Source: an uncultured bacterium
GTDB taxonomy: Bacteria > CAZDME01 > JAYEMH01
Direction of reading: 5' to 3'
DNA: 32,686 nt
Assembly: GCA_964506785.1 (NCBI GenBank)
Contig: CAZDME010000008.1
Span: 1 to 32,686 of the forward strand
Shown one piece after another: positions 149 through 11,047 of the stretch; the stretch's first letter is position 1, and every line of letters starts with the position of its first letter. Both the position numbers and the translations under genes were made by a program. The notes beneath the pieces were generated by a model, which was given only the letters and a program-made list of their open reading frames with translations, was not told the DNA's origin and made no database searches.

Positions 149-277
149 GTTTTTTTAATATGAAAGGGGCCGGTATTTTGAAGGCTTCTAAAATTCCCGC
201 AGTTTAAGAAAACGGGATTTGGTCCTAAAACAAAGAATCGGCCTCACTTATATTTGGCCGAACATTCTAATTTCTAT

Positions 278-414
278 CCCCGATCTGAGCTTTACCCCGT
301 TAGAAACCCTTATCTACCCTCAGGTAGGTCTGCCAAAAGCGTGGTGTTTATTTGCGGCGGATTATTTCTAACGGGGTTTACGAAAGCCCTGCTCTGCCAT
401 TGAGCTGCCTCAGC
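278..414 (-). pseudogene. tRNA-Thr(CGT) pseudogene interrupted by a palindromic element and lacking a normal T-loop and 3' end
   Basis: Minus strand reads GCTGAGG-CA-GCTC-AATGGCA-GAGC-A-GGGCT-TTCGTAA-A[insert]. Removing the insert plus one TAAA restores the anticodon arm GGGCT/TTCGTAA/AGCTC, then AGATCGGGG. No TTCRA T-loop or CCA follows, and position 8 is C instead of T. Confidence 0.75.
295..376. mobile_element. Palindromic MITE-like element, copy 1 (82 bp)
   Basis: Perfect 12-bp terminal inverted repeats CCCCGTTAGAAA (295-306) / TTTCTAACGGGG (365-376), flanked by direct repeat TTTA (291-294, 377-380). Confidence 0.85.
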
Positions 415-423
415 CGATCTTCT

Positions 424-2280
424 TTACTCTACGGTGACACTTTTAGCTAAATTCCTGGGCTGGTCGACATCACAGCCTCTCTTTACGGCAATGTAATAGG
501 CTAAAAGCTGTAAGGGTAAAATGGCTAAAAGAGGTGTCAGCACCTCAATAGTTTCGGGGATATAAATGGTATAATCAACTTTTTTTTGGATGGCTTTATC
601 ACCTGCTGAACCGACGGCAATAACTAAACCGCCCCGGGCTTTTACCTCTTCAATATTTCCCAGAATTTTTTCATACCGCCTCCCCGGGAAAGCTAAAACA
701 AAAACCGGCATATTTTCGTCAATAAGGGCAATCGGGCCGTGTTTCATTTCTGCCGCCGGATAGCCTTCGGCATGAATATAAGAAACCTCTTTTAATTTTA
801 AAGCCCCTTCTAAGGCAATGGGGAAACCTTTGCCTCTGCCCAGATAGAGAGCATTATTCCTTTCATAGAGCCTCTCGCTTATTTGTTTAACCATCTCGGT
901 ATTTCCCAATATTTCCTTCATTTTATGCGGAATCTGGCGTAGATTCAAAATGAAGTCTTGAATCTTATCATGGGAAATGGTTTTCCTTATTCTTCCGAAA
1001 TGAAAGGCAAGAAGATATAAAATCAATAGCTGACAGGTAAAGGCCTTGGTTGAAGCTACCCCAATCTCAGGGCCGGCGTGAGTATAGATAAGGCCGCTTG
1101 AAAACCGGGTAATAGAGCTACCGACTACATTACAGATAGAAACTACTTTGGCCATGAGGCGGCGAGCTTCGTTTATGGCCGCAATGGTATCCGCCGTTTC
1201 TCCGGATTGACTGATGCCGATAACTAAGGTATTTTCGTCAATTATGGGATTCCGGTAGCGGAATTCAGAGGCATATTCTACCTCCACCGGGATACGGCCG
1301 AGTTCTTCTATTATAAACTCTCCCACTAAAGCGGCGTGCCAGGAAGTTCCGCAGCCGGTAATAATTATACGGTTGATATTTTTAATCTCTTTTTCCGTTA
1401 GATTAAGCTCATCTAAAATTACCTCTCCGCTATCCGGGGAAATTCTTCCTCTTAAAGTCTCTTCAATCGCCCGCGGCTGTTCGTTTATTTCCTTGAGCAT
1501 AAAATGAGGATATCCTGCCTTTTCGGCCATTTCCGCATTCCAATTTACCGTCGTCACTTTTTTCTCGGCCCTTTTGCCTTTATGGTCATATATCTCCACT
1601 CCCTGCCGGGTAAGAACAGCGATATCTCCGTCATTCAGATAAATAATCCGGCGAGTAGAAGAAAGGACTGCCGGAATATCAGAAGCAAGAAAATACTCTC
1701 CCTCGCCTAATCCAACTATCAATGGACTTTCCTTACGAGCGGCCACTAAAACATCAGGCTCCTGGCTGTAAAATACCCCCAGGGCATAGGAGCCTTTTAT
1801 TCTACTCAGGGCTTTCTGGACGGCTTGATGTAAATGCATATTGGCTGGCAAAATCATCCGGTGGGATTCTAAGTATTTTTCAATTAGATGGGCAATTATT
1901 TCCGTATCCGTTTCTGACCTGAATTTATGCCCCTCTTTCTCTAATTCCTCTTTCAACGAAAGATAATTTTCGATAATTCCGTTGTGGACGACAACTAATT
2001 GTTCGTGACAATCGGTGTGAGGATGGGCATTTTCTTCAGTGGGCTTTCCGTGAGTAGCCCAACGGCTGTGCCCAATTCCCAGTTTACCTGGGAGAAGGCG
2101 GCCTCCTAAATTGGCCTCTAAATTGGCAATTTTTCCCACACTACGGATAAGCTTCAATTCCCCTTGTGACAAAACGGCAATACCTACCGAGTCATATCCC
2201 CGGTATTCTAATTTTTTTAAACCTTCAATTAATATAGGCAATGCTTCTTTTTCCCCGATATATCCTATTATCCCGCACAT
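424..2280 (-). CDS. glmS: Glutamine--fructose-6-phosphate aminotransferase (isomerizing)
   Basis: N-terminal MCGIIG, EYRGYDS, HSRWATHG, SQSGETAD and C-terminal PRNLAKSVTVE. Confidence 0.99.
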   Translation of the reverse strand: MCGIIGYIGEKEALPILIEGLKKLEYRGYDSVGIAVLSQGELKLIRSVGKIANLEANLGGRLLPGKLGIGHSRWATHGKPTEENAHPHTDCHEQLVVVHNGIIENYLSLKEELEKEGHKFRSETDTEIIAHLIEKYLESHRMILPANMHLHQAVQKALSRIKGSYALGVFYSQEPDVLVAARKESPLIVGLGEGEYFLASDIPAVLSSTRRIIYLNDGDIAVLTRQGVEIYDHKGKRAEKKVTTVNWNAEMAEKAGYPHFMLKEINEQPRAIEETLRGRISPDSGEVILDELNLTEKEIKNINRIIITGCGTSWHAALVGEFIIEELGRIPVEVEYASEFRYRNPIIDENTLVIGISQSGETADTIAAINEARRLMAKVVSICNVVGSSITRFSSGLIYTHAGPEIGVASTKAFTCQLLILYLLAFHFGRIRKTISHDKIQDFILNLRQIPHKMKEILGNTEMVKQISERLYERNNALYLGRGKGFPIALEGALKLKEVSYIHAEGYPAAEMKHGPIALIDENMPVFVLAFPGRRYEKILGNIEEVKARGGLVIAVGSAGDKAIQKKVDYTIYIPETIEVLTPLLAILPLQLLAYYIAVKRGCDVDQPRNLAKSVTVE

Positions 2281-2309
2281 ATCGCTCCCATAACTCTATT
2301 AAAATAAAA

Positions 2310-2385
2310 TGGTGCCGAGAGACGGAATCGAACCGCCGACGCGCAGATTTTCAGTCTACCGCTCTACCGACTGAGCTATCTCGGC
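2310..2385 (-). tRNA. tRNA-Phe(GAA)
   Basis: GCCGAGATAGCTCAGTCGGTAGAGCGGTAGACTGAAAATCTGCGCGTCGGCGGTTCGATTCCGTCTCTCGGCACCA: full cloverleaf with encoded CCA. Confidence 0.97.
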
Positions 2386-2403
2386 ACCTTTTTTAAAACC
2401 TAA

Positions 2404-2432
2404 ATTTTATTCTTACTTTAAAAACTTGTCAA
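2404..2432 (-). promoter_or_regulatory. Sigma70-type promoter for tRNA-Phe (and probably glmS)
   Basis: TTGACA (2432-2427), 17-nt spacer, TAAAAT (2409-2404). Confidence 0.8.
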
Positions 2433-2457
2433 GCAGTTTCTCTAAAAAATCACCCTC

Positions 2458-2970
2458 TCATTTTAAGCGATTCCCTTTAACAGTTTCCCCTCTGAGTGCT
2501 GGCAAAATTGCCTCTACCTCTTCCTTCCATTTCTTTTCTTGATCCAGCTTGAGGTATCTTTCTAAAAAATCAACTGCTTCTTTCTTTCTGCCTTTTTCCT
2601 GATAAATTTTTCCTAATTGATAGCAAACATCGCTATCCTCGGGATTAATCGACAAAATTCGTTTGAATTCTTTAATTGCCTTATTACTTTTCCCCTGGAG
2701 CTGGTAAACCTTTCCCCGTTGAAAGTGCTGGTCGACAGCCAGGACCTCGGCCATTCCTGCAGATTCAAAGATGGTTGGTTTGTTATGTAGGTCAGGCCGG
2801 AGTTCAACCAGCCGATAAATCAAGACGGTGAAGGTTAAAATAAAAGAAGAGATGACTACGGTTAGGATCCAGGAACTATATGTGGAAAGGTTAAAAGATA
2901 TAAAAGCCACCCCGGCCAGGACCAGAGAAGAAAAAACTACGCCTCTTATATTTCTTCGAATTTTTCTCAT
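2458..2970 (-). CDS. Membrane-anchored TPR-repeat protein
   Basis: Two N-terminal hydrophobic helices; C-terminal TPR-like repeats (AIKEFKRILSINPED, YQLGKIYQEKG). Confidence 0.8.
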   Translation of the reverse strand: MRKIRRNIRGVVFSSLVLAGVAFISFNLSTYSSWILTVVISSFILTFTVLIYRLVELRPDLHNKPTIFESAGMAEVLAVDQHFQRGKVYQLQGKSNKAIKEFKRILSINPEDSDVCYQLGKIYQEKGRKKEAVDFLERYLKLDQEKKWKEEVEAILPALRGETVKGNRLK

Positions 2971-3016
2971 CGCTCCCTACCTGAATCCGGTCAGCTACGT
3001 TAATCGTTCTTCTAAT

Positions 3017-3214
3017 CTACTTCTTTTTAATTGTCTCCCAGATAAAAATAATAAACTTGCCCAAAATCCAGACAGCGAAAATAAAAAGAAAGACAATGAC
3101 CATAAAACGCAGGGACCAAACCATGAGCATCAACAAAGGGAAAAGTAAAACACCTACCCCGGCAAGAATAGCCACACCAATAAGAAAGATAAGCCCGATT
3201 AGAAAAGCTCTCAT
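3017..3214 (-). CDS. Small hypothetical membrane protein
   Basis: 65 aa, almost entirely hydrophobic, basic tail, RBS GGAGAGGG; same strand as its neighbours. Confidence 0.7.
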   Translation of the reverse strand: MRAFLIGLIFLIGVAILAGVGVLLFPLLMLMVWSLRFMVIVFLFIFAVWILGKFIIFIWETIKKK

Positions 3215-3262
3215 TCCCTCTCCTTCTTTCTTTCGCAGAATTTAAAACAACATTTACACCGC

Positions 3263-3616
3263 TTACTTACCTAAACTAGGCATACCGGATTGAACGACAA
3301 TCCGCAGGGCTTCCTCTTTGGTAAATCCGGCTTTCACCAGGGCAACATAATAATTTCTGGTAAAGGCGGCTAATTTCATCGCCGTTTCTTTCCTCGCCAG
3401 ATAGGTAAGCATCACATCCATCATCTGTCCCACCATTTTACTCATTGCCGGGCCCATCTGCCGCATCCCCTGCATCGCCATCTGCATCTCTCTCTGCGTT
3501 TGTTCAGGAGTCTCTTCTACTGGCTGCGATTGCTGCTGGCTGTTCGATATCTCCGGGAAAAAGAAAAACAAAGCCATACATAAAAATAAACCGAAGCTAA
3601 GTATTTTTTTAAGCAT
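3263..3616 (-). CDS. Hypothetical exported protein (Met/Gln-rich)
   Basis: Signal-peptide-like N-terminus, strong RBS GGAGGGGG, C-terminal LVKAGFTKEEALRIV segment. Confidence 0.75.
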   Translation of the reverse strand: MLKKILSFGLFLCMALFFFFPEISNSQQQSQPVEETPEQTQREMQMAMQGMRQMGPAMSKMVGQMMDVMLTYLARKETAMKLAAFTRNYYVALVKAGFTKEEALRIVVQSGMPSLGK

Positions 3617-3653
3617 TCATCCCCCTCCCTTCTTCGTTATCTTAAAAATGAAC

Positions 3654-3730
3654 TGGCGGGAGCGACGAGACTCGAACTCGCGGCCTCCAGATTGACAATC
3701 TGGCGTTCTAACCAACTGAACTACGCCCCC
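3654..3730 (-). tRNA. tRNA-Asp(GTC)
   Basis: GGGGGCGTAGTTCAGTTGGTTAGAACGCCAGATTGTCAATCTGGAGGCCGCGAGTTCGAGTCTCGTCGCTCCCGCCA. Confidence 0.97.
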
Positions 3731-3803
3731 TTATTAACAATCGGCAAATTATTAATTGCCAATGGATAATTATTAGCTATAAGCCGTTTACTATTTGCTA
3801 ATC

Positions 3804-3880
3804 TGGTGGGCGAAGCAGGACTTGAACCTGCAACCTCCCGGATGTAAACCGGATGCTCCAGCCAATTGAGCTATTCGCCC
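3804..3880 (-). tRNA. tRNA-Val(TAC)
   Basis: GGGCGAATAGCTCAATTGGCTGGAGCATCCGGTTTACATCCGGGAGGTTGCAGGTTCAAGTCCTGCTTCGCCCACCA. Confidence 0.97.
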
Positions 3881-3891
3881 ATTTCCGCTTA

Positions 3892-3920
3892 AATATATCA
3901 CACTAAAATACTAAAGTCAA
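3892..3920 (-). promoter_or_regulatory. Sigma70-type promoter for tRNA-Val/tRNA-Asp
   Basis: TTGACT (3920-3915), 17-nt spacer, TATATT (3897-3892) preceded by TGn (extended -10). Confidence 0.7.
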
Positions 3921-4744
3921 GATAAGGCTTTCTCCGCTTTAGCTTGTTTTAATTCCTCAACCAGGCGATAAGGCGCTTTAAACTTACCCAATAAAGCCTT
4001 CCCCCGGGCCAAACCGTGGCAGTCTGAACCCCCGGTCATTAAAAGATTATATTTATAGGCTAAGCGTTCATAATGAAGGGTAATTTGAGGATCCTGAAGG
4101 CTATAATAAACCTCTATGCCGTCTAAACCATCCTGGATAAATTCGGGAATCCATTCATCGTGATTTAATATATAGGGATGGGCCAGAACCGCCAGACCTC
4201 CAGCTTCCTTAATTAACTTAACCGCCTCCCGGGGCGACAATCTGAATTTTGCTATATAAGCGGGTTTCCCGGCACCAATAAAGCGCTGAAAAACCTCTTT
4301 AACAGAACCGGCATATCCATAGGAAATCATCATCCGGGCAATATGCAGCCTTCCCACCGAACCAGGTCCGGAAAACTTCAATAAATCGTTAAAGTCTATT
4401 TTCATGCCGAGTTTATCTAATTTCTCTAGAATCATTCGGACACGCTCTAAACGCACCTCTTGCAATAATTTAAGTTCGGTTTGAAATTTGGCCTCTTTCC
4501 AATCGATAAAATAACCCAGAATATGAATTTCCGTTCCCCTCATCTCGCTGGTTAACTCTACCCCGGGAATAATCTCTATTCTATCCCGGGCCAGGCTGGC
4601 TGCTTCGCCTATGGCCTCGACAGCATCATGGTCGGTTATGGCAATTGCCGACAACTGCCCGGCTACAGCCTTGTTTATTACCTCTTCCGGAGTGAACGTT
4701 CCATCTGAGATATAAGTATGAATATGTAAATCGGCGTATTTCAT
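3917..4744 (-). CDS. PHP-domain metal-dependent phosphoesterase (TrpH/YciV-like)
   Basis: [30 protein letters not shown] and GGSDCHG motifs. Confidence 0.93.
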
Positions 4745-5190
4745 TTTTTACCTCTAAAGCGGGATTTTCCTGTCTGCCCGGCAGGCAGGCCTGAGGTCTT
4801 GTTTATTCTATCCAGAATCCCGTTAACAAATTTCCCGGAATCTGCCGTGCTGTATTTCTTGGCAATTTCAATGGCTTCATTGATGCTAACTGCCGGCGGA
4901 ATATCTTTTAAGTATAAAAGCTCATAAGCAGCAAAGCGTAAAATATTGCGGTCGATTGCATTTAACCGTTCGATCTTCCAGTGTTCGCTATATTTACAGA
5001 TAAGAGGATCGATATCCTTTTGTTTATCGAGTGTCCCTTTGACTAACTCTTCTGTAAATTTCTTTGTCTCCGCCGGGATAATTTTCCCTCCCCAGAATTT
5101 TTTTGAATTCTTTCTAAACTTCTCCTTCGTCAAATCAATCTGGTAGAGAATTTGTAAAGCCAGTTCTCTGGCCTTTCTTCGACCGGACAT
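4741..5190 (-). CDS. nusB: Transcription antitermination factor NusB
   Basis: [40 protein letters not shown]; follows ribH as is usual. Confidence 0.97.
4769..4789. repeat. 21-bp palindrome CCTGTCTGCCCGGCAGGCAGG in the 3' end of nusB
   Basis: Near-perfect inverted repeat (one T/C mismatch) encoding LPAGQTG in the NusB C-terminal tail. Confidence 0.6.
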
Positions 5191-5211
5191 AGTCTCTCCA
5201 TTCTAAACCTC

Positions 5212-5328
5212 CCCCGTTAGAGATAGGCGCCCTTAAGCAACCGAAAATTACCCTTTATCGCCAAATAAAAGTTTTTATTCAGTAAGCATTTCGATTAAGC
5301 GCAAAAGCTCTTTTTATCTCTAAGGAAA
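5212..5328. mobile_element. Palindromic element, copy 2, decayed (ribH-nusB spacer)
   Basis: Left end CCCCGTTAGAGATA (5212-5225); right end TATCTCTAA (5315-5323) is its exact complement over 9 bp. The outer CGGGG is eroded (GGAAA) and there is no clear direct repeat. Confidence 0.6.
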
Positions 5329-5333
5329 GTTAG

Positions 5334-5801
5334 TTATTCTATCTGGCTATAAAGATTGACCATCTCAATGGCGGCTACAGCCGCTTTAAAACCCTTATTT
5401 CCTTCTTTCGTTCCGGCTCTTTCAATCGCCTGCTCAATCGTCTCGGCCGTAATCACCCCAAAAATAACCGGCAGGCCGGAATCTTGCGAGGTCCGGGCAA
5501 TGCCTTTGGCAGCTTCACCGGCAATATATTCGGCATGACTGGTATCGCCGCGGATAACTGCGCCCAAACCCAGAAGCGCGTCAAATTTTTTCCCTTCAGC
5601 TATCTTTTTAGCCAGATAAGGGATTTCAAAACAACCGGGCACCCAAAAAACTTCTATTTCTTCTTCCCTGGCGCCATGTCTTTTTAAAGCGTCGACTGCC
5701 CCGTCAATCAGCCTTTGGGTAATAAACTCATTGAACCGGCTGGCGATAATCCCGTAGCGTTTGCCCCGGCTGACCAATTCACCTTCAACAATTTTCACCA
5801 T
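5334..5801 (-). CDS. ribH: 6,7-dimethyl-8-ribityllumazine synthase
   Basis: SRFNEFIT, VPGCFEIP, GAVIRGDT, ERAGTKEGNKG. Start moved to ATG 5801 (MVKIVEG), which follows RBS AGGAGG. Confidence 0.97.
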   Translation of the reverse strand: MVKIVEGELVSRGKRYGIIASRFNEFITQRLIDGAVDALKRHGAREEEIEVFWVPGCFEIPYLAKKIAEGKKFDALLGLGAVIRGDTSHAEYIAGEAAKGIARTSQDSGLPVIFGVITAETIEQAIERAGTKEGNKGFKAAVAAIEMVNLYSQIE

Positions 5802-5822
5802 TTTTCCTCCTTCCTTCTTTTT

Positions 5823-5882
5823 CAGAAAACAGATGTCGGAAAACAAAAGCTAGAAAATCTGTTTTCGGTCCTCTGTTTTCTG
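5823..5882. repeat. Inverted array of degenerate 7-mers (CAGAAAA-type) forming a hairpin
   Basis: Left arm CAGAAAA-CAGATGT-CGGAAAA-CAAA; the right arm reverse-complements to CAGAAAA-CAGAGGA-CCGAAAA-CAGA. Confidence 0.7.
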
Positions 5883-5886
5883 TCTT

Positions 5887-7089
5887 CTAGTCTATATTCA
5901 ACAGGTGTCCTAATTTTTTTTTCTTGGTGGCCAGATAGCCTAAATTGTTCTTGTTTGGCTTTATCTCAATGGGAATACGCTCGGTTATTTTTAGCCCATA
6001 CCCTTTAAGCCCAATAATTTTCCGGGGATTATTTGTCAGTAATTTTATTTTTTTCAGCCCCAAATCAGCTAAAATCTGGGCCCCCAGGCCATAGTCCCTC
6101 AGGTCAGCTTCAAAACCCAAATGGATATTGGCCTCGACCGTATCTAAACCCTGATCCTGGAGCTCATAGGCTTTAAGCTTCGGCAGAAGCCCAATCCCCC
6201 TTCCTTCCTGCTGCATATAAAGTAGAACTCCTGTTCCCACATCAGCAATTTTTTTTAATGACTGCCGCAGCTGTTCCCCGCAATCACAGCGTTTAGAATG
6301 TAACACATCCCCGGTGAAGCATTCCGAATGGACCCGGACTAAAACATCCTCCTGGCTATTTATCTTCCCGGCCACTAAAGCGATATGGAGTGACTCATCG
6401 AGAAGAGACTGATAGGTAATCATTTGAAAATTGCCAAATTCGGTCGGAAGTCCCGTGGAGGATACTTTTTTAACTAACTTTTCCCTTTGTCTTCGATATT
6501 CAATCAAATCGGCAATAGTGCAGATTTTCAACTTGTGCCTAAGCGCAAATTTCTTAAGCTGGGGAAACCTGGCCATGGTGCCGTCATCATTCATAATTTC
6601 ACAAATTACTCCAGCCGGATATAACCCGGAAAGAACGGCTAAATCCACGGCTGCTTCAGTATGTCCAGCTCGCCTGAGCACCCCGCCTTCTTTACTTCTT
6701 AAAGGGAAAACATGGCCGGGAGAATAAAAATCCTCTTTGCGTGATTGTAGATTTAGAACCTTCTTAACCGTCAGGGCCCGGTCATGAGCGGAGATACCCG
6801 TAGTCGTCCCTTTTTTAGCGTCGATAGATGCGGCAAAATCGGTTTCCCGGGGATTAATTTGATGGCCACTCATTGGGTTGAGTCCCAGCTCGTCTAGCCT
6901 TTTGCCGGCTATGGCTAAACAAACCAGCCCCCGCCCATACTTAGCCATAAAATTAATCGCCTCAGGGCTTACTTTTTCAGCGGCTAAACAGAGGTCGCCT
7001 TCATTCTCGCGGTTCTTATCATCAACAACAATAATCATCTTTCCCTTTTTATAATCAGAAATTGCCTCAAGGATAGGCTGTCTATTCAT
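5887..7089 (-). CDS. ribBA: Bifunctional 3,4-dihydroxy-2-butanone 4-phosphate synthase / GTP cyclohydrolase II
   Basis: RENEGDL, GHTEAAVDL, VRVHSECFTGD, RCDCGEQL, QEGRGIGL, LLTNNPRK. Confidence 0.98.
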   Translation of the reverse strand: MNRQPILEAISDYKKGKMIIVVDDKNRENEGDLCLAAEKVSPEAINFMAKYGRGLVCLAIAGKRLDELGLNPMSGHQINPRETDFAASIDAKKGTTTGISAHDRALTVKKVLNLQSRKEDFYSPGHVFPLRSKEGGVLRRAGHTEAAVDLAVLSGLYPAGVICEIMNDDGTMARFPQLKKFALRHKLKICTIADLIEYRRQREKLVKKVSSTGLPTEFGNFQMITYQSLLDESLHIALVAGKINSQEDVLVRVHSECFTGDVLHSKRCDCGEQLRQSLKKIADVGTGVLLYMQQEGRGIGLLPKLKAYELQDQGLDTVEANIHLGFEADLRDYGLGAQILADLGLKKIKLLTNNPRKIIGLKGYGLKITERIPIEIKPNKNNLGYLATKKKKLGHLLNID

Positions 7090-7095
7090 TGGAAA

Positions 7096-7692
7096 TCACC
7101 TCTTCATTCGGTTCAAATGTTTTTGAACATACTTACCCAAATAATCCAGCTCCAGATTAAGCTCATCGCCAACTTTTTTCCTCCCCAGAGTGGTCTCTTT
7201 CAGCGTATAGGGGACAAGGGCCACTTTAAAAAAACCGGCTTTTATTTCGGCAACAGTTAAACTTACCCCTTCTAAAGCAATAGACCCCCGGGGAACAATC
7301 TGTTTTAACAATTCTAAATTTGTTTCGAGCCATAAATGAACTTCCTTGCTTAATTTTTGTTTTTTAATGATTCTGGCTATTCCGTCAATATGCCCCGAAA
7401 CCAGATGCCCTCCTAATCGCCCATCCAGTTTTACCGCTCTTTCTAAATTCACCTTATCTCCGCACTTCACCTTTCCTAAATTAGTTTTCTTTAAAGTCTC
7501 CTTGACTGCCTCAACCGTAAAATTACTTGAATTACACCTTACCAAAGTCAAGCAAACTCCGTTTATGGCAATACTATCCTTCACTCTTAAATCAGCTAAA
7601 ATCTTATCAGCCGTCACTTCAATCACTCTAAGGCCAAATTGAGAAGAAATCCTTTTTACTCCACCTAATTCCTCGATTATTCCCGTAAACAT
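7096..7692 (-). CDS. ribE: Riboflavin synthase (alpha chain)
   Basis: MFTGIIEE N-terminus, SIAINGVCLT, VNLERA, GGHLVSGHIDG. Confidence 0.97.
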   Translation of the reverse strand: MFTGIIEELGGVKRISSQFGLRVIEVTADKILADLRVKDSIAINGVCLTLVRCNSSNFTVEAVKETLKKTNLGKVKCGDKVNLERAVKLDGRLGGHLVSGHIDGIARIIKKQKLSKEVHLWLETNLELLKQIVPRGSIALEGVSLTVAEIKAGFFKVALVPYTLKETTLGRKKVGDELNLELDYLGKYVQKHLNRMKR

Positions 7693-7719
7693 TCTTTCCT
7701 CAAATCAAAAGGGCCAAGG

Positions 7720-8175
7720 CTATTTTTGCAAGGAACCATTTTTTACTATGGAATTAATAAAGTCCTTATTAAGTTCCCGGCATTCGTTTTCTTTAACCCC
7801 TAAACAGACTTCTATTCCCGCCTCTTGAAGAGCCTTAATCCCTCGGCCAGAATTTATTTGATTAGGGTCTATCATCCCAATGACTGTTTTTTGTATGCCG
7901 GCTTTAATAATTTCCGGCACACAGGGCGGTGTTCTGCCGTAATGGACACACGGTTCAAGGTTGACAAAAAGAGTTGCTCCCCGAGAATTTTTCCCGGCCT
8001 TCTTTAAAGCAGCGATTTCCGCATGTTCTCCGCCCAGATAGGCATGGTATCCTCTACCGACAATCCTTCCGTTCTTAACAAGCACTGCACCTACTAAAGG
8101 ATTAGGGCTAACCCGGCCCCTTCCCCGGCGAGCCAGTTCTATCGCTAATTGCATATATTTATCGTTATTGGTCAT
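7720..8175 (-). CDS. ribD: Diaminohydroxyphosphoribosylaminopyrimidine deaminase (RibD deaminase domain only, 151 aa)
   Basis: PNPLVGAVLV, HAE, LEPCVHYGRTPPC zinc motifs. Start moved to ATG 8175. The protein ends where the reductase domain would begin. Confidence 0.9.
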   Translation of the reverse strand: MTNNDKYMQLAIELARRGRGRVSPNPLVGAVLVKNGRIVGRGYHAYLGGEHAEIAALKKAGKNSRGATLFVNLEPCVHYGRTPPCVPEIIKAGIQKTVIGMIDPNQINSGRGIKALQEAGIEVCLGVKENECRELNKDFINSIVKNGSLQK

Positions 8176-8257
8176 AATTCCATTACCAATTGGGCAAAGG
8201 CGGATTTTAAAACCGCCAAAAATTCTTTTTGAGTCTTTTTTTTGCTTCGCCCAAGGC

Positions 8258-8290
8258 AAAAATAAAAATCCCGAAGATTTCTCTTCGGGG
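8258..8290 (-). terminator. Intrinsic terminator of the FMN riboswitch expression platform
   Basis: Minus strand CCCGAAGA-GAAA-TCTTCGGG then ATTTTTATTTTT. Its 5' arm is also complementary to the aptamer 5' end (TCTTCGGGG), giving an antiterminator alternative. Confidence 0.85.
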
Positions 8291-8310
8291 AAAAACTATC
8301 AAAGCTATTA

Positions 8311-8510
8311 AAATCTTCTCCCTTCTGGACTTTCACCCCGTTAGAAATCACCTTTAACGGTTACCGCCGGCAACCTATTTCTAACGGGGTTAACCATCGG
8401 CCCTGGATTCACACCAGGTCCATCCGCTCAAAGCTTCTAGCGGAGTTGCGGGCTTTCCTACTCTTACAGGACTACCGCCGGTCGGGAATTCCACCCTGCC
8501 CCGAAGATTT
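8311..8510 (-). ncRNA. FMN riboswitch (RFN element) containing a palindromic insertion
   Basis: Minus strand AAATCTTCGGGGCAGGGTGGAATTCCCGACCGGCGGT...AAGCCCGC...CCTGGTGTGAATCCAGGGCCGATGGT[insert]GAAAGTCCAGAAGGGAGAAGATTT, directly upstream of the rib operon. Confidence 0.95.
8336..8389. mobile_element. Palindromic element, copy 3 (54 bp), inside the FMN aptamer
   Basis: Perfect 13-bp inverted repeats CCCCGTTAGAAAT (8336-8348) / ATTTCTAACGGGG (8377-8389); flanks TTCA / TTAA. Confidence 0.85.
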
Positions 8511-8517
8511 CCGCTTT

Positions 8518-8545
8518 ATTCTAACACAAAAAAAAGAACTGTCAA
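8518..8545 (-). promoter_or_regulatory. Sigma70-type promoter of the rib operon
   Basis: TTGACA (8545-8540), 16-nt spacer, TAGAAT (8523-8518) with TGn extension, immediately before the riboswitch. Confidence 0.75.
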
Positions 8546-8577
8546 CTATTTTCTGCCGCTCGCCTGGATTCTGCCGC

Positions 8578-8802
8578 TTACGGCTTATTTCTTTTCAATT
8601 TCTTTATTAACTGCTTGATTCCCTTGGTTCTCTTTTTAGTCAATCTTCTGTTTATCGAGAACTCAAATTTTATGATATCTCCTTCTTTGGCCTCTTTTGG
8701 CAAATACTTCTCTGGGAAATTTATCTCCTGACCTTTTCTATCAAGTAAAACCGCCAGATTCTCTTCGAACCGGTCTATAACTAAATTAATTTTCCCCTTC
8801 AT
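8578..8802 (-). CDS. DUF3006-like small protein
   Basis: VIDRFEENLAVL...LPKEAKEGDII pattern with a basic C-terminal helix. Confidence 0.8.
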   Translation of the reverse strand: MKGKINLVIDRFEENLAVLLDRKGQEINFPEKYLPKEAKEGDIIKFEFSINRRLTKKRTKGIKQLIKKLKRNKP

Positions 8803-9464
8803 AATCTAATTACCATTCCCATCCTCGAAAGGATTATCTGAAGGCCCCAAAACATCAGAATCAAACCAGCAAAAATTTTCAAAACTTTTAAAAACTTTGT
8901 TTTTGGGATTTTCTGCGGGATGAATCCAGAGAACGCTCCTAGAACAAGCATGGGAGAAATAGTTGTTCCCAAGCCAAAGGCTAAAGTTAGAAGGACGCTT
9001 GAAATTAAATTAGTTGCCTTAATGAAAATATAGGCAAAAACAGCCATCAAAGGCCCGCAAGGGATAATCCCCATCAAAAGCCCCAGGATGAAAACCGTCT
9101 TCAGGTTATGCCTGGTCAATAATTTCCCTAATCCCGGACAAATATTTAATCTATGCTTTCCTAAAATTAGCAAAAAACCGATAAGGAAAATAAATAACCC
9201 GAAAAAAATCTGGAGTTCAAAATTAAACTGGCTTTCCAGGAAGCTATCCAGGTATATTTGTTTGCCTAAACCGAGGAGTAAACCGAATAAAATACAAATG
9301 GTAATTCTTCCCGCCGAAAAAATTAAAGTAGCCTGGAGTCCCTTTTTCCAATTTCCCGCAGTCCCTAAAACGAAGGGAAGGAGAATCGGCGCGCAAACCA
9401 ACAGACAGGTGCTTGAACCGACAAAAATTCCGCCTAAAAAAAGTTCTAAAAAATTTTTATTCAT
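8799..9464 (-). CDS. Sulfite exporter TauE/SafE / DsbD_2-like membrane protein
   Basis: About 6 TM helices with CxxxC (CLLVC), GR, PCG and AFGLGT motifs. Confidence 0.8.
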   Translation of the reverse strand: MNKNFLELFLGGIFVGSSTCLLVCAPILLPFVLGTAGNWKKGLQATLIFSAGRITICILFGLLLGLGKQIYLDSFLESQFNFELQIFFGLFIFLIGFLLILGKHRLNICPGLGKLLTRHNLKTVFILGLLMGIIPCGPLMAVFAYIFIKATNLISSVLLTLAFGLGTTISPMLVLGAFSGFIPQKIPKTKFLKVLKIFAGLILMFWGLQIILSRMGMVIRL

Positions 9465-11047
9465 CTCTTTTTTTCATGAAAAACCTGGGCGGTAAAAATA
9501 TACACCTCGGCATTTTCCCGCCAGGCCCCTCGAGGAAGTCCGGCTTTTTCACAAATTCTTTCTAAAAATTCGGCCCGGTCCCAGCCGTATTCGGCGGCTA
9601 CTTGAGGGAGAAGCAATCCAGAATAAATACCCCGGCGGATTACCAGTCCGTGTTTGCCTACTTCAATTCTATTTACATCGGCAATTTTTTCCAAAGGGGA
9701 CAAAACAGAAATTTCGATTTCAATATCCGGAAGTTCCTCCTTAGTCACCGGGGGAAAACGGTGATCTTTAAGGGCGGCTGACAGGGCTGCCTGAGAAACA
9801 GCCTGATAAAGAGGCAAAACTGCCTCGGGGAAACCGATGCATCCGCGCAACCTTCCGCTTTTATTTAAAGTGACAAACGCCCCGCCCAACTTTTTAAGAC
9901 CGTCACTTTTTACCTGAAACTCAGGGATATTCTCTCCTTCTAAAGCATTTTCAATAGATGCCCGGGCAATTTCTAAAAGAAGCCGTTGTTCTTCCTTATC
10001 TAAATCTGACAATTTTCCTTCCTCCTTTCTTACTTTCTCTGTTTTTTCTTCCCGGTAAAAAGCAATAGCGCTATAACCAACAACCCGTTCCTTATCTCTT
10101 AACCAAGGAGGGGCAGTATCTCCGGAATTGGCGTATTTTAAAATTCTCACCTTATCGGCTCCCAGCTCCTTGGCCACTTCCATAATTGTAAGTACACATC
10201 CGGCGCCGCACCATTCACATTGGCCTCTCTCAATGCTGTTATATAACCCCTGGATATCAAATCTCTTGATAAAACCGAGGCTTTTCTTATCAATAGCCGC
10301 GGCCTCTTCATAATTATGGTAATGGGACATATCCGAGCTGGCAATAAGAATAAAAGATTCCTCGGGCAGATTATTCAATATCGCCTCTTTTAAAATCTCA
10401 ACCATATCCCATTTATAACTTCCCATCAGAATCGGCACAATGGTAAACCCCGTTAGGGAATCCCCTTTTTCCCCGGCGCTAACTTTACTTGTGCTTTGTG
10501 GCCCCGACCAATTAATATTTTTTTCTAACGGGGTAAATTCATTTCCCCAAATTTTCTGCAAAAAAGGAAGTTGAACTTCAAGTGAGTGTTCACCGTAATG
10601 GGCTAAGGGGTGAGTTCTTATTTTATCGGAAAAATCCAAAAATCTCTGAGCTAATACTTCGTTAATCGGCACCTGGCCCAAAGGCGTTTCATACATTCCC
10701 CGGGGAAGAATTGAAATGTAATTATAACGAAACTGGTGGCTGGGGCCGATTAGAATTACGGTTTTTTTTGGCTTATTCTCAATTGCCTTGTAGGCATAGG
10801 CGGCTACCGCTCCAGAAAAAGTGTATCCGGCATGAGGAACGATTAAAGCAAGCACTTCTCCCTGAAGTTTTAAATCCGGTGCTTTACCTAAATAACTTTC
10901 CACTTCATTAGAAAGCTTCGCTTCTTCATCGGAATAGAATTGCCCAGCTACGGCCGGCTTCCTTATACGCATCTCCTGGGCGCCGGCAGACACTAATATA
11001 AAAAAAACTAAAATTAAAACGCTAATTGAAGTGATTAAGTCCTTCAT
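9461..11047 (-). CDS. AmmeMemoRadiSam system protein B (MEMO1-like) fused to protein A (AMMECR1-like), with signal peptide and a 30-aa in-frame insert
   Basis: RKPAVAGQFY, PHAGY, GPSH, EHSLEVQLPFLQ, SSDMSHY, VVGY (MEMO domain); then GAFVTL, LRGCIG, DHRFPP, EISVLS, GLLLPQVA (AMMECR1 domain). Confidence 0.93.
   Translation of the reverse strand: MKDLITSISVLILVFFILVSAGAQEMRIRKPAVAGQFYSDEEAKLSNEVESYLGKAPDLKLQGEVLALIVPHAGYTFSGAVAAYAYKAIENKPKKTVILIGPSHQFRYNYISILPRGMYETPLGQVPINEVLAQRFLDFSDKIRTHPLAHYGEHSLEVQLPFLQKIWGNEFTPLEKNINWSGPQSTSKVSAGEKGDSLTGFTIVPILMGSYKWDMVEILKEAILNNLPEESFILIASSDMSHYHNYEEAAAIDKKSLGFIKRFDIQGLYNSIERGQCEWCGAGCVLTIMEVAKELGADKVRILKYANSGDTAPPWLRDKERVVGYSAIAFYREEKTEKVRKEEGKLSDLDKEEQRLLLEIARASIENALEGENIPEFQVKSDGLKKLGGAFVTLNKSGRLRGCIGFPEAVLPLYQAVSQAALSAALKDHRFPPVTKEELPDIEIEISVLSPLEKIADVNRIEVGKHGLVIRRGIYSGLLLPQVAAEYGWDRAEFLERICEKAGLPRGAWRENAEVYIFTAQVFHEKKR
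10448..10533. mobile_element. Palindromic element, copy 4 (86 bp), in frame within the MEMO domain
   Basis: CCCCGTTAG(GGAA) ... (TTTT)CTAACGGGG with direct repeat TAAA (10444-10447, 10534-10537); 86+4 = 90 bp = 30 codons. Confidence 0.88.

What the first reader, a model, noticed from the sequence alone, without database searches (positions are those of the whole stretch)
291..10537. Dispersed palindromic element family: constant ends, unrelated interiors, inserted into tRNA, riboswitch and protein genes
Seen: four loci (295-376, 5212-5328, 8336-8389, 10448-10533) share ends CCCCGTTAG(A)...(T)CTAACGGGG. Flanks are TTTA/TTTA, TTCA/TTAA and TAAA/TAAA (eroded in copy 2). Lengths are 82, about 117, 54 and 86 bp, and by eye the interiors share no similarity. 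In three cases, deleting the element plus one 4-bp flank restores the expected host sequence. Known: MITEs and Rickettsia palindromic elements insert into genes, but copies within a family are normally homologous along their length. Inference: a non-autonomous mobile system where only about 9-13 bp ends are conserved and the cargo is variable (captured or rapidly replaced DNA), targeting T..A tetramers and mobilised in trans. No transposase is present in this window.
Basis: partly seen in the sequence, partly recalled or inferred. Interest (0 to 1): 0.9.

Follow-up and report, generated by a model that had tools for sequence, protein, structure and literature searches.

The report
Tiny nuclease-linked jumping DNA elements
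The four loci are real copies of a family of very short mobile DNA elements whose constant ends are the same as those of a widespread 278-base unit that carries only one small nuclease gene, which may be a new and unusually small kind of transposon.

Summary
Three loci (295-376, 8336-8389, 10448-10533) have exact CCCCGTTAG...CTAACGGGG ends. The fourth (5212-5328) keeps only the left end. The genome has 12 exact pairs, against 0 for 30 permuted motifs, and about 28 copies when mismatches are allowed. Flanking 4-mers are identical in 12 of 28 copies (chance 0.7%). Relatives show empty sites for the Memo-AMMECR1 gene and the FMN riboswitch. The "tRNA" is only a 44-nt 5' fragment of tRNA-Thr(CGU); the intact gene lies elsewhere. 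All 5 copies inside long ORFs are in frame.

New here: the same ends bound a 275-281 bp unit that holds nothing but an 86-aa single-domain GIY-YIG nuclease ORF. Of the 80 best relatives of that ORF, from many phyla, 45 have exact ends on both sides. Of 82 stretches of that size bounded by these ends in metagenomes, 61 encode it.

Best reading: these are MITE-like, non-autonomous derivatives mobilised in trans by this nuclease family. That they are mobile insertions is well supported. That the nuclease moves them is inferred. This genome's assembly holds no such unit.

The closest known system is the Ssn nuclease/hairpin-repeat system, but its repeat motif is absent here. I rate it a new variant of a known kind.

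The parts
291..380 (.). Copy 1. The element is 295-376 (82 bp), with exact ends and TTTA on both sides (291-294 and 377-380).
   Evidence: As single-stranded DNA it folds with the 13-nt arms paired (-18.1 kcal/mol, z -4.4).
285..414 (-). Host of copy 1: a 5' fragment of tRNA-Thr(CGU) (acceptor, D arm and anticodon arm) with no T arm. The insertion sits at TAAA, which spans anticodon position 36 to stem position 39 by my own hand numbering.
   Evidence: after removal, 42 of 44 nt match the intact tRNA-Thr(cgt) at G000:C30:11775-11849. Searches find no tRNA here. One search shows a paralogous copy carrying the same insertion at C30:13422-13612 (153 of 194 identical).
5212..5328 (.). Copy 2, decayed. 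It has an exact left end, a right end reduced to ATCTCTAAGG and no flank repeat. It lies between nusB (4741-5190) and ribH (5334-5846).
   Evidence: The fold is not better than shuffles (z -0.7).
8332..8393 (.). Copy 3. The element is 8336-8389 (54 bp), with exact ends and flanks TTCA/TTAA.
   Evidence: Fold z is -5.2.
8311..8512 (-). FMN riboswitch aptamer, interrupted in the loop of its last hairpin (P6) by copy 3. It lies upstream of the riboflavin operon (ribD-like 7720-8259, ribBA 5887-7089, ribH).
   Evidence: RF00050 at 73.1 bits, where the model's 3' end is forced into the element. Read by eye, the true 3' part (AGUCCAGAAGGGAGAAGAUUUU) follows the element; the syntenic riboswitch in G002:C10:11357-11494 is uninterrupted (81.8 bits).
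10444..10537 (.). Copy 4. The element is 10448-10533 (86 bp), with TAAA on both sides. 86+4 = 90 bp, so it is in frame.
9461..11047 (-). Memo-AMMECR1 fusion gene (528 aa) that reads through copy 4 and gains 30 residues (TPLEKN...DSLTGF).
   Evidence: PF01875 and PF01871; the orthologues in G001:C17 and G002:C10 (76% and 69% identity) lack query residues 172-200. The empty site GAGTTTACTATC compares with GAATTTA[86 bp]TTTACCATT in the window.

Best explanation
The loci are short, non-autonomous inverted-repeat elements (MITE-like). Their 13-nt ends (CCCCGTTAGARAY / its complement) are the ends of a 275-281 bp unit found in many bacterial phyla. That unit consists only of these ends and one 86-aa single-domain GIY-YIG nuclease ORF. 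The last seven codons of the ORF (RFLSLTG) are the right end itself, and its stop codon is supplied by the flanking DNA.

Shown:
- The elements insert at T-N-N-A tetramers, mostly TTTA/TAAA, with a 4-bp duplication.
- Related genomes hold empty sites.
- Copies that persist inside genes are in frame and free of stops, so they are translated as 19-35 extra residues.
- The ends and the nuclease ORF are coupled in both directions of search.
- The two arms co-vary.

Inferred:
- The nuclease, supplied in trans, recognises the paired or symmetric ends and cuts within the flanking TNNA, both at the element and at the target.
- Cohesive short overhangs would then let the host ligase paste the element in. 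They would also allow scarless excision when the two flanks are identical.
- An element would carry the central two bases of its donor flanks with it. This would explain the recurrent non-identical flank pairs around nuclease units.
- The copies in this genome are either relics or are served by an unassembled unit or by one of three more distant GIY-YIG paralogues.
For: Mobility:
- 12 exact pairs against 0 in 30 permuted controls.
- Identical flanking 4-mers in 12 of 28 curated copies, and in 8 of the 12 exact-end copies, against a chance rate of 0.7%.
- Identical flanks in 14 of 20 copies in sister genome G001. These include five 111-113 bp homologous copies at five different sites, each with a perfect duplication.
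- Empty sites for the Memo gene and the FMN riboswitch in relatives, and for the tRNA-Thr fragment in its intact paralogue.

Selection in genes:
- 5 of 28 copies lie in long ORFs (Memo, NfeD, HPPK, a GATase and HisA/F). All 5 have (length+4) divisible by 3.

Link to the nuclease:
- Units in G002 and G012, which are different families, align over their whole length. Their ORFs are 73% identical.
- Of the best 80 of 311 relatives of the ORF in genome contigs, 45 have exact 10-mers on both sides and 16 have one mismatch on each side.
- Of 68 anchored units, 58 have perfectly complementary 13-nt arms. There are 52 compensatory double changes against 12 one-arm changes.
- In the reverse direction, 61 of 82 stretches of 270-295 bp bounded by exact ends in metagenome contigs encode the ORF. 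The other 21 look like arrays of shorter elements.
- All 6 of the 41 genomes that hold end pairs also have a related GIY-YIG ORF at E<=1e-8, against 2 of the other 35. Kin are not independent.
- Units of the same size (277 bp) but with different inverted ends exist in G009.
- The Pfam GIY-YIG match is strong (E 1e-14 to 1e-20).
Against: - No biochemical or genetic evidence shows that this nuclease moves anything. GIY-YIG enzymes are not known transposases, and the full-text search for 'GIY-YIG transposase' found 0 papers.
- The window's genome (91% complete) has no unit with these ends. Its three small GIY-YIG ORFs are 34-47% identical to the unit's ORF and are not flanked by the ends. G001, with 22 exact pairs, also showed none.
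- Flanks of the nuclease units are identical in only 25 of 68 and 15 of 60 units, so a simple duplication model does not fit them.
- Co-varying arms are expected for any transposon and do not show a hairpin.
- Contigs of four sequencing runs (3 studies) carry the window's copies unchanged, with no empty allele. Contigs drop rare variants.
- The homogeneous 93-94 bp copies in G012 share their flanks too, so they are copies of a larger repeat and not independent insertions.
- I checked only two transposase families.
Confidence: 0.6

Rival explanations
1. The short elements are moved by a conventional (DDE-type) transposase that has not been seen because insertion sequences are poorly assembled in these metagenome genomes. 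The GIY-YIG gene is only the most successful passenger between the ends.
For: A 4-bp duplication with short inverted ends is the classical signature of DDE transposases (established knowledge). Fragments matching IS1380-type and DDE_Tnp_1 models exist in G009 and G012, some at contig ends, and one lies 72 bp from an element. Neither G000 nor G001 shows a nuclease unit with these ends.
Against: - None of the transposase fragments is bounded by the ends.
- G000 and G001 have no PF01609 or IS1380 match at all.
- No pair of ends 200-6000 bp apart in G000 has matching flanks.
- The ORF's C-terminus is encoded by the end itself, and the ORF-plus-ends unit is kept at 275-281 bp across phyla. That is hard to reconcile with a passenger.
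- Only two transposase families were searched.
Confidence: 0.2
2. The short palindromes came first. The GIY-YIG gene is a homing endonuclease gene that cuts in the middle of a minimal palindrome (24-31 bp copies exist) and copies itself there. Other interiors are repair filler. The palindromes themselves spread by another route.
For: Minimal copies of 24-31 bp, consisting of little more than the two arms, exist in G000, G001 and G004. The weak NCBIfam match is to group I intron endonucleases, at 26.7 and 31.9 bits, below the cut-off. Several copies have a second, decayed end inside or beside them (C1:20494, C17:16989, C89:3059).
Against: Empty sites show that the whole element, arms included, is absent, not only its interior. 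The 86-aa protein has no separate DNA-binding domain of the kind homing GIY-YIG enzymes carry (established knowledge, as stated in PMC11893778, Discussion). Interiors do not match other DNA of the genome.
Confidence: 0.1
3. The repeats are host-serving sequence signals, as proposed for the Neisseria NTS repeats cut by SsnA during transformation, and are not currently mobile. The nuclease acts on incoming or single-stranded DNA that carries them.
For: Single-domain GIY-YIG nucleases flanked by, and co-occurring with, genomic hairpin repeats cut single-stranded DNA next to those repeats and modulate transformation in Neisseria meningitidis (PMC11893778; I read Results sections 6-10 and the Discussion). 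Here, 8 of 80 units sit in the leader of type IV pilin-like genes, which belong to the DNA-uptake and secretion machinery.
Against: Duplications, empty sites and insertions that disrupt a riboswitch and conserved enzyme domains are the marks of insertion events, not of selected signals. The published repeat motif is absent: 0 of 28 copies and 0 of 71 loci. This reading could hold in addition to mobility rather than instead of it.
Confidence: 0.07

Closest known systems
Ssn nucleases and their NTS/SRM hairpin repeats (Chenal et al. 2025, Nat Commun, PMC11893778; I read Results sections 6-10, the Discussion and passages of the Methods)
   Same: A single-domain GIY-YIG protein of about 90 aa is flanked by inverted-repeat DNA, and that DNA is also scattered through the genome in many copies. 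The authors note that the gene-between-repeats layout looks like an insertion sequence.
   Different: - There, each flank is a complete 20-50 nt hairpin. [quoted passage not shown]
- Here, the two flanks are the two arms of one inverted repeat, and copies carry 4-bp duplications and sit in genes.
- The published SRM search motif matches 0 of 28 copies and 0 of 71 nuclease loci.
- Whether the ORF belongs to the same subfamily (cd10448) could not be tested.
- That paper's supplementary tables, which I could not see, may list such loci.
MITEs of bacteria and plants (for example Correia, RUP, Stowaway and Tourist; recalled)
   Same: They are short, have terminal inverted repeats and a target duplication, carry no ORF, occur in many copies and share ends with a longer coding element. 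At the superfamily level, subfamilies share only their ends.
   Different: The partner element carries a GIY-YIG nuclease rather than a DDE transposase, and at about 278 bp it is itself no larger than many MITEs.
Rickettsia palindromic elements (recalled)
   Same: These are palindromic elements found inside protein-coding genes, in frame and translated. All 5 in-ORF copies here are in frame.
   Different: No sequence relation was tested. RPE copies of one family are alike along their whole length, and a nuclease partner has not, to my knowledge, been shown. PMC11893778 lists Rickettsia among the genera rich in Ssn-related repeats.
REP/REPIN sequences with RAYT transposases, and IS200/IS605 (recalled; also cited in PMC11893778)
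   Same: One small enzyme gene is flanked by the same palindromic sequences that are scattered through the genome as non-autonomous copies. Both may act on folded single strands.
   Different: Those enzymes are HUH/Y1 transposases and leave no target duplication. Here the enzyme is GIY-YIG and 4-bp duplications are the rule for the short copies.
piggyBac / IS1380 (recalled)
   Same: A 4-bp T..A-type target is duplicated, the inverted ends are short, and scarless excision is possible.
   Different: No IS1380-type gene is bounded by these ends.

Membership tests
MITE (non-autonomous inverted-repeat element) | Terminal inverted repeats | tested here: met
   The 9-13 nt arms are exact in 12 pairs in G000.
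MITE (non-autonomous inverted-repeat element) | Target-site duplication and empty sites in related genomes | tested here: met
   Flanking 4-mers are identical in 12 of 28 copies (chance 0.7%) and in 14 of 20 copies in G001. Empty sites are shown.
MITE (non-autonomous inverted-repeat element) | Short, with no coding capacity of its own, and multicopy | tested here: met
   Copies are 24-126 bp, and about 28 are present in 1.38 Mb.
MITE (non-autonomous inverted-repeat element) | A longer coding element with the same ends in the same genome | tested here: not met
   None is present in the G000 assembly, which is 91% complete. Such units exist in G002, G012 and many other genomes.
Ssn / SRM system (PMC11893778) | Single-domain GIY-YIG protein of about 90 aa | tested here: met
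   The ORF is 86 aa and PF01541 is its only domain.
Ssn / SRM system (PMC11893778) | Membership of CDD subfamily cd10448 | not testable with these tools
   No CDD library is available here. The nearest solved structures are UPF0213 proteins 1zg2 (E 5.7e-5) and 1ywl.
Ssn / SRM system (PMC11893778) | The gene is flanked by repeats that match the published SRM motif | tested here: not met
   The motif hits 0 of 71 nuclease loci and 0 of 28 copies, with 2 hits in the whole genome.
Ssn / SRM system (PMC11893778) | Sequence-specific cutting of single-stranded DNA only | not testable with these tools
   This needs an enzyme assay.
IS1380 / DDE insertion sequences | A transposase gene bounded by the same ends | tested here: not met
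   PF01609 and NF033539 give no match in G000 or G001. The fragments in G004, G009 and G012 lack the ends. Other transposase families were not searched.
IS200/IS605-type single-strand elements | No target duplication, and a Y1 transposase | tested here: not met
   Duplications are present. A Y1 gene was not searched for.
Insertion in a functional tRNA gene / tRNA intron | A complete cloverleaf is restored on removal | tested here: not met
   ARAGORN finds no tRNA before or after removal. Only 44 nt of the 5' part match. The intact tRNA-Thr(cgt) is at C30:11775-11849.

The most novel reading that the evidence does not exclude
The 275-281 bp unit of two 13-nt inverted ends plus an 86-aa GIY-YIG nuclease is an autonomous DNA transposon of a new class. 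It would be the smallest known, with a GIY-YIG enzyme as its only protein. It would move itself and its even shorter derivatives by cutting at T-N-N-A and pasting through short cohesive ends.

Its ends are also coding sequence. The right end plus a TTTA target reads L-T-G-F-T. Insertion into the leader of type IV pilin genes therefore yields a nuclease-pilin fusion with an intact prepilin-peptidase site. Insertion at ATGAA start sites leaves the host gene's start codon overlapping the nuclease's stop.
Probability: 0.4. Interest if true: 0.9.

Novelty: new variant of a known kind. Interest (0 to 1): 0.72.

Why it matters
If the nuclease does move these elements, it adds a new enzyme class to the short list of transposase chemistries. 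It would also define a self-contained mobile element under 300 bp, spread across Omnitrophota, Patescibacteria, Planctomycetota, Nitrospirota, Thermodesulfobacteriota and other phyla.

It would give the large, uncharacterised family of small GIY-YIG proteins a function that can be tested directly, using one small protein and one 30-nt substrate. It would also explain unexpected in-frame peptides and interrupted RNA elements in metagenome genomes.

For annotation, it means that extra loops of 19-35 residues beginning PVR or TPLE and ending SNGV or LTGF in proteins of these lineages are element insertions, not native sequence.

Tried and rejected
- tRNA gene or intron reading: ARAGORN, with and without the intron option and after removing the element, and Rfam at E<=10 found no tRNA at 150-520. 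Removing the nuclease unit from 68 loci restored no tRNA.
- IS1380/piggyBac-type and DDE_Tnp_1 transposases as partners: no gene is bounded by the ends.
- Long elements in G000: 24 end pairs lie 200-6000 bp apart, and none has matching flanks.
- Interiors as captured host DNA or remnants of the nuclease gene: no BLASTN hit to the rest of the genome or to the 80 nuclease loci.
- Published SRM motif: absent.
- Vehicles: there was no tblastn match of the ORF in the plasmid or phage collections at E<=1e-5 and no unit in viral contigs.
- Population polymorphism: contigs of 4 runs show the copies in place. One joint, 8289-8474 in one run, does not coincide with the element and probably comes from another organism's riboswitch.
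- Expression: no RNA holder was listed for the window.
- The G012 93-94 bp family as evidence of a recent burst: rejected, because the copies share their flanks.
- Literature: full-text searches for GIY-YIG combined with MITE, inverted repeats and duplication, pilin, palindromic elements, 'GIY-YIG transposase', and Omnitrophota/Patescibacteria found only PMC11893778 as relevant. In PMC12455944 I saw one passage, which lists a GIY-YIG protein among transferred genes.
Full report
**1. The observation**

The window is contig C8 of a 1.38-Mb genome in 112 contigs, 42% G+C and 91% complete.

CCCCGTTAG occurs exactly at 295, 5212, 8336 and 10448. Its complement ends exactly at 376, 8389 and 10533 (sequences read). 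The locus at 5212 has only a decayed right end and no flank repeat.

- The 9-mer alone, with one mismatch allowed, is not remarkable in the window: 12 matches against 6.2 expected.
- The paired arrangement is remarkable. The genome has 19 left and 25 right ends and 12 exact pairs within 10-130 bp. Each of 30 permuted 9-mers gave 0 pairs, and the backwards pattern gave 0 in 41 genomes.
- A relaxed scan gave 49 overlapping candidates, from which I curated 28 copies of 24-126 bp. That scan is noisy: permuted motifs gave 0 to 58. I rest statistics on the exact pairs where possible.
- Interiors are unrelated, after trimming 13 nt per end from the copies longer than 50 bp and using BLASTN with word 7. 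The one exception is C8:295 and C30:13504, which are two paralogous copies of one insertion together with its flanks.

**2. They are insertions**

- Flanking 4-mers are identical in 12 of the 28 copies and differ by one base in 6. Among the 12 exact-end copies, 8 are identical and 2 differ by one base. The chance rate is 0.7%.
- In the sister genome G001, 14 of 20 copies have identical flanks. Five homologous copies of 111-113 bp lie at five different sites, each with a perfect duplication.

Three empty sites were found.

- *Memo-AMMECR1 gene (9461-11047, minus strand).* It reads through copy 4 and gains 30 residues. The orthologues in G001 and G002 (76% and 69% identical) lack exactly query residues 172-200 and have a single TTTA at the site.
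- *FMN riboswitch.* The aptamer is interrupted in the loop of its last hairpin. By eye, its true 3' part follows the element. The syntenic riboswitch of G002 is intact at 81.8 bits.
- *The 'tRNA'.* After removal of copy 1 plus 4 bp, the minus strand matches 42 of 44 nt of the 5' part of the genome's intact tRNA-Thr(cgt) gene at C30:11775-11849. No T arm follows, and ARAGORN and Rfam see no tRNA. The host is therefore a tRNA fragment, and the intact gene serves as the empty site.

**3. In genes, only in-frame copies persist**

Five of the 28 copies lie in open frames that extend at least 40 codons on both sides. The hosts are Memo, an NfeD-type protease, HPPK, a glutamine amidotransferase and HisA/F. 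In all five, length plus 4 is divisible by 3, against 13 of 28 overall. The end sequences are read as xPVR...SNGV in four copies and as TPLE...LTGF in one.

In the Pfam matches for HPPK and HisA/F the domain match is split into two stretches. For the NfeD gene the orthologues align only from just after the insert, which is consistent but not decisive. For the amidotransferase no orthologue was found.

**4. The partner**

The same end pairs occur in 5 of 40 other genomes searched. These include both other species of this small candidate phylum (3 of 3) and three genomes of unrelated families.

In G002, a 279-bp stretch bounded by the ends and by TTTA encodes an 86-aa GIY-YIG protein. G012 holds a 278-bp counterpart, alignable over its whole length, whose protein is 73% identical. 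The right end encodes the last residues (RFLSLTG), and the flank supplies the stop codon.

*Search starting from the protein.* It found 311 relatives in the species-representative genome collection. Of the best 80, from Omnitrophota, Patescibacteria, Planctomycetota, Nitrospirota, Thermodesulfobacteriota, Clostridia and Gammaproteobacteria genome bins:
- 45 have exact 10-mers on both sides;
- 16 have one mismatch on each side.

Of 68 units that could be anchored:
- 58 have perfectly complementary 13-nt arms;
- changes are compensatory 52 times and one-sided 12 times;
- lengths cluster at 275-281 bp;
- over all 80 loci, 70 show no stop in the matched stretch.

In the 80 loci returned:
- 61 of 82 such stretches encode the protein;
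- the other 21 look like arrays of shorter elements, and some are duplicates.

*Co-occurrence.* All 6 of the 41 genomes with end pairs have a related ORF at E<=1e-8, against 2 of the other 35. Kin are not independent. G009 has units of the same size (277 bp) with quite different inverted ends. This points to a wider superfamily in which ends and enzyme evolve together.

**5. What speaks against the nuclease as the mover**

- The window's genome has no unit with these ends. Its three small GIY-YIG ORFs are 34-47% identical to the unit's ORF and are unflanked. G001 shows none either.
- Around nuclease units both flanks obey T-N-N-A, with T in 54 and 62 of 68 units and A in 56 and 59 of 68. They are identical in only 25 of 68 and 15 of 60 units. 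The pairs TTTA...TGAA and TTCA...TAAA, which are one configuration read on either strand, recur at unrelated sites.
- I can explain that pattern only by inference. If the enzyme cuts inside TNNA and leaves two-base overhangs (the chemistry of homing GIY-YIG enzymes, recalled), an element would carry the middle bases of its donor flanks. Right flanks reading TGA or TAA would then be selected, because they end the ORF. The right flank starts with a stop in 48 of 68 and 35 of 60 units.
- Contigs of four runs from three studies show the window's copies in place with no empty allele. Contigs hide rare variants.
- The 93-94 bp copies of G012 share their flanks, so they belong to a larger repeat.
- Only two transposase families were excluded.

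**6. Comparison with what is known**

The closest published system is the Ssn family (PMC11893778; I read Results sections 6-10, the Discussion and passages of the Methods). These are single-domain GIY-YIG nucleases of about 94 aa that cut single-stranded DNA next to hairpin repeats. The repeats flank the gene and are scattered through the genome, and the authors remark that the layout resembles an insertion sequence.

The system here differs in several ways:
- the two flanks are the arms of one inverted repeat;
- short copies carry duplications and sit inside genes and a riboswitch;
- the published repeat motif is absent.

The nearest solved structures are UPF0213 proteins.

The behaviour resembles that of MITEs, of Rickettsia palindromic elements (in-frame copies in genes) and of REPIN/RAYT pairs (all recalled). 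Full-text searches found no description of a GIY-YIG gene between inverted ends with duplications, and none of a 'GIY-YIG transposase'.

**7. Verdict**

That the four loci are mobile, non-autonomous inverted-repeat elements is well supported. That they derive from, and are moved by, the 278-bp GIY-YIG unit is the best-supported explanation (about 0.6), but it rests on association only. I rate it a new variant of a known kind. If the enzyme is shown to be the transposase, it would be a new class of transposon.

Noticed in passing
L039, L043, L050, L056, L065, L071, L074, L076 (about 701-1460 in each locus; 76-897 in L050): In 8 of 80 nuclease units the ORF runs through the right end, in frame, into a type IV pilin-like gene exactly at the prepilin cleavage motif (...SLTG|FTLIE plus a hydrophobic helix). 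Two are T2SS protein G pseudopilins, and five have an N_methyl motif match. In G002 the pilin's own start codon is left upstream as a 13-codon ORF. The pilin sequence around the site matches, by my hand count, 22 of 26 bases of the right end-TTTA-left end junction seen in tandem copies.
   Followed up: partly
L061, L073, L092, L097, L099, L100, L102, L107, L112, L114, L116 and others (flanks of the unit): In 12 of 68 units the left flank ends in ATGAA, GTGAA or TTGGA and the right flank begins with TGAA. The unit therefore sits on a host start codon, and the nuclease's TGA stop overlaps a re-created ATG (ATGA). This is mostly seen in Patescibacteria.
   Followed up: partly
G000:C43:560-990 (also G001:C14 and G002:C18, loci L030 and L017): A different small GIY-YIG ORF (47% identical to the unit's ORF) lies directly upstream of an intact tRNA-Arg(tct). 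It reads into the tRNA's first bases. An 18-nt copy of the tRNA's 5' end lies upstream of the ORF. A tRNA 3' end lies near the ORF in all three genomes of the phylum.
   Followed up: partly
G000:C27:3653-5253 (L141:254-1854): An AbiEii-type nucleotidyltransferase ORF and a partner ORF lie between ACCCGTTAGA and TCTAACGGGT, whose outermost bases are changed in a compensatory way. The flanks are AAAA/TTTA. About 0.2 such pairs are expected by chance on my rough estimate, so a chance pairing is not excluded.
   Followed up: partly
window 217-405 and G000:C30:13422-13612: Two paralogous stretches of about 190 bp (153 of 194 identical) each hold the tRNA-Thr 5' fragment with the same element inside it, followed by a conserved CGGCC...GGCCG hairpin. 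The C30 copy lies 1.6 kb from the intact tRNA-Thr(cgt) gene.
   Followed up: partly
L025 (G009:C122) and L133 (G009:C76): These are nuclease units of the same size (277 bp) with other inverted ends: CCCAGCACCTC with TGAA/TGAA flanks, and CCCTGTGAAATAA with TTTA/TGAA flanks.
   Followed up: partly
L042, L044, L045, L047, L055 (one site); L054, L084, L091 (other sites): Several nuclease units from different phyla lie in homologous copies of one host ORF family (...FDAIRQL|MAPPEP...IGF...). At the first site the downstream part restarts at its own ATG directly after the nuclease's stop. L042 and L044, labelled as different phyla, have identical flanks.
   Followed up: no
L263-L282 (G012): The 11 copies of 91-94 bp share at least 10 bp of flank on each side (TGTATGTTYA...TTTATATGCT). 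Several lie at contig ends. They are therefore part of a larger, unassembled repeat.
   Followed up: partly
G000:C1:20494-20538, C17:16989-17048, C89:3059-3158: In these copies one left end is followed by two right ends, 16 to 47 bp apart. This could arise by nested insertion or by use of a more distal end, and it is one possible route to new interiors.
   Followed up: no
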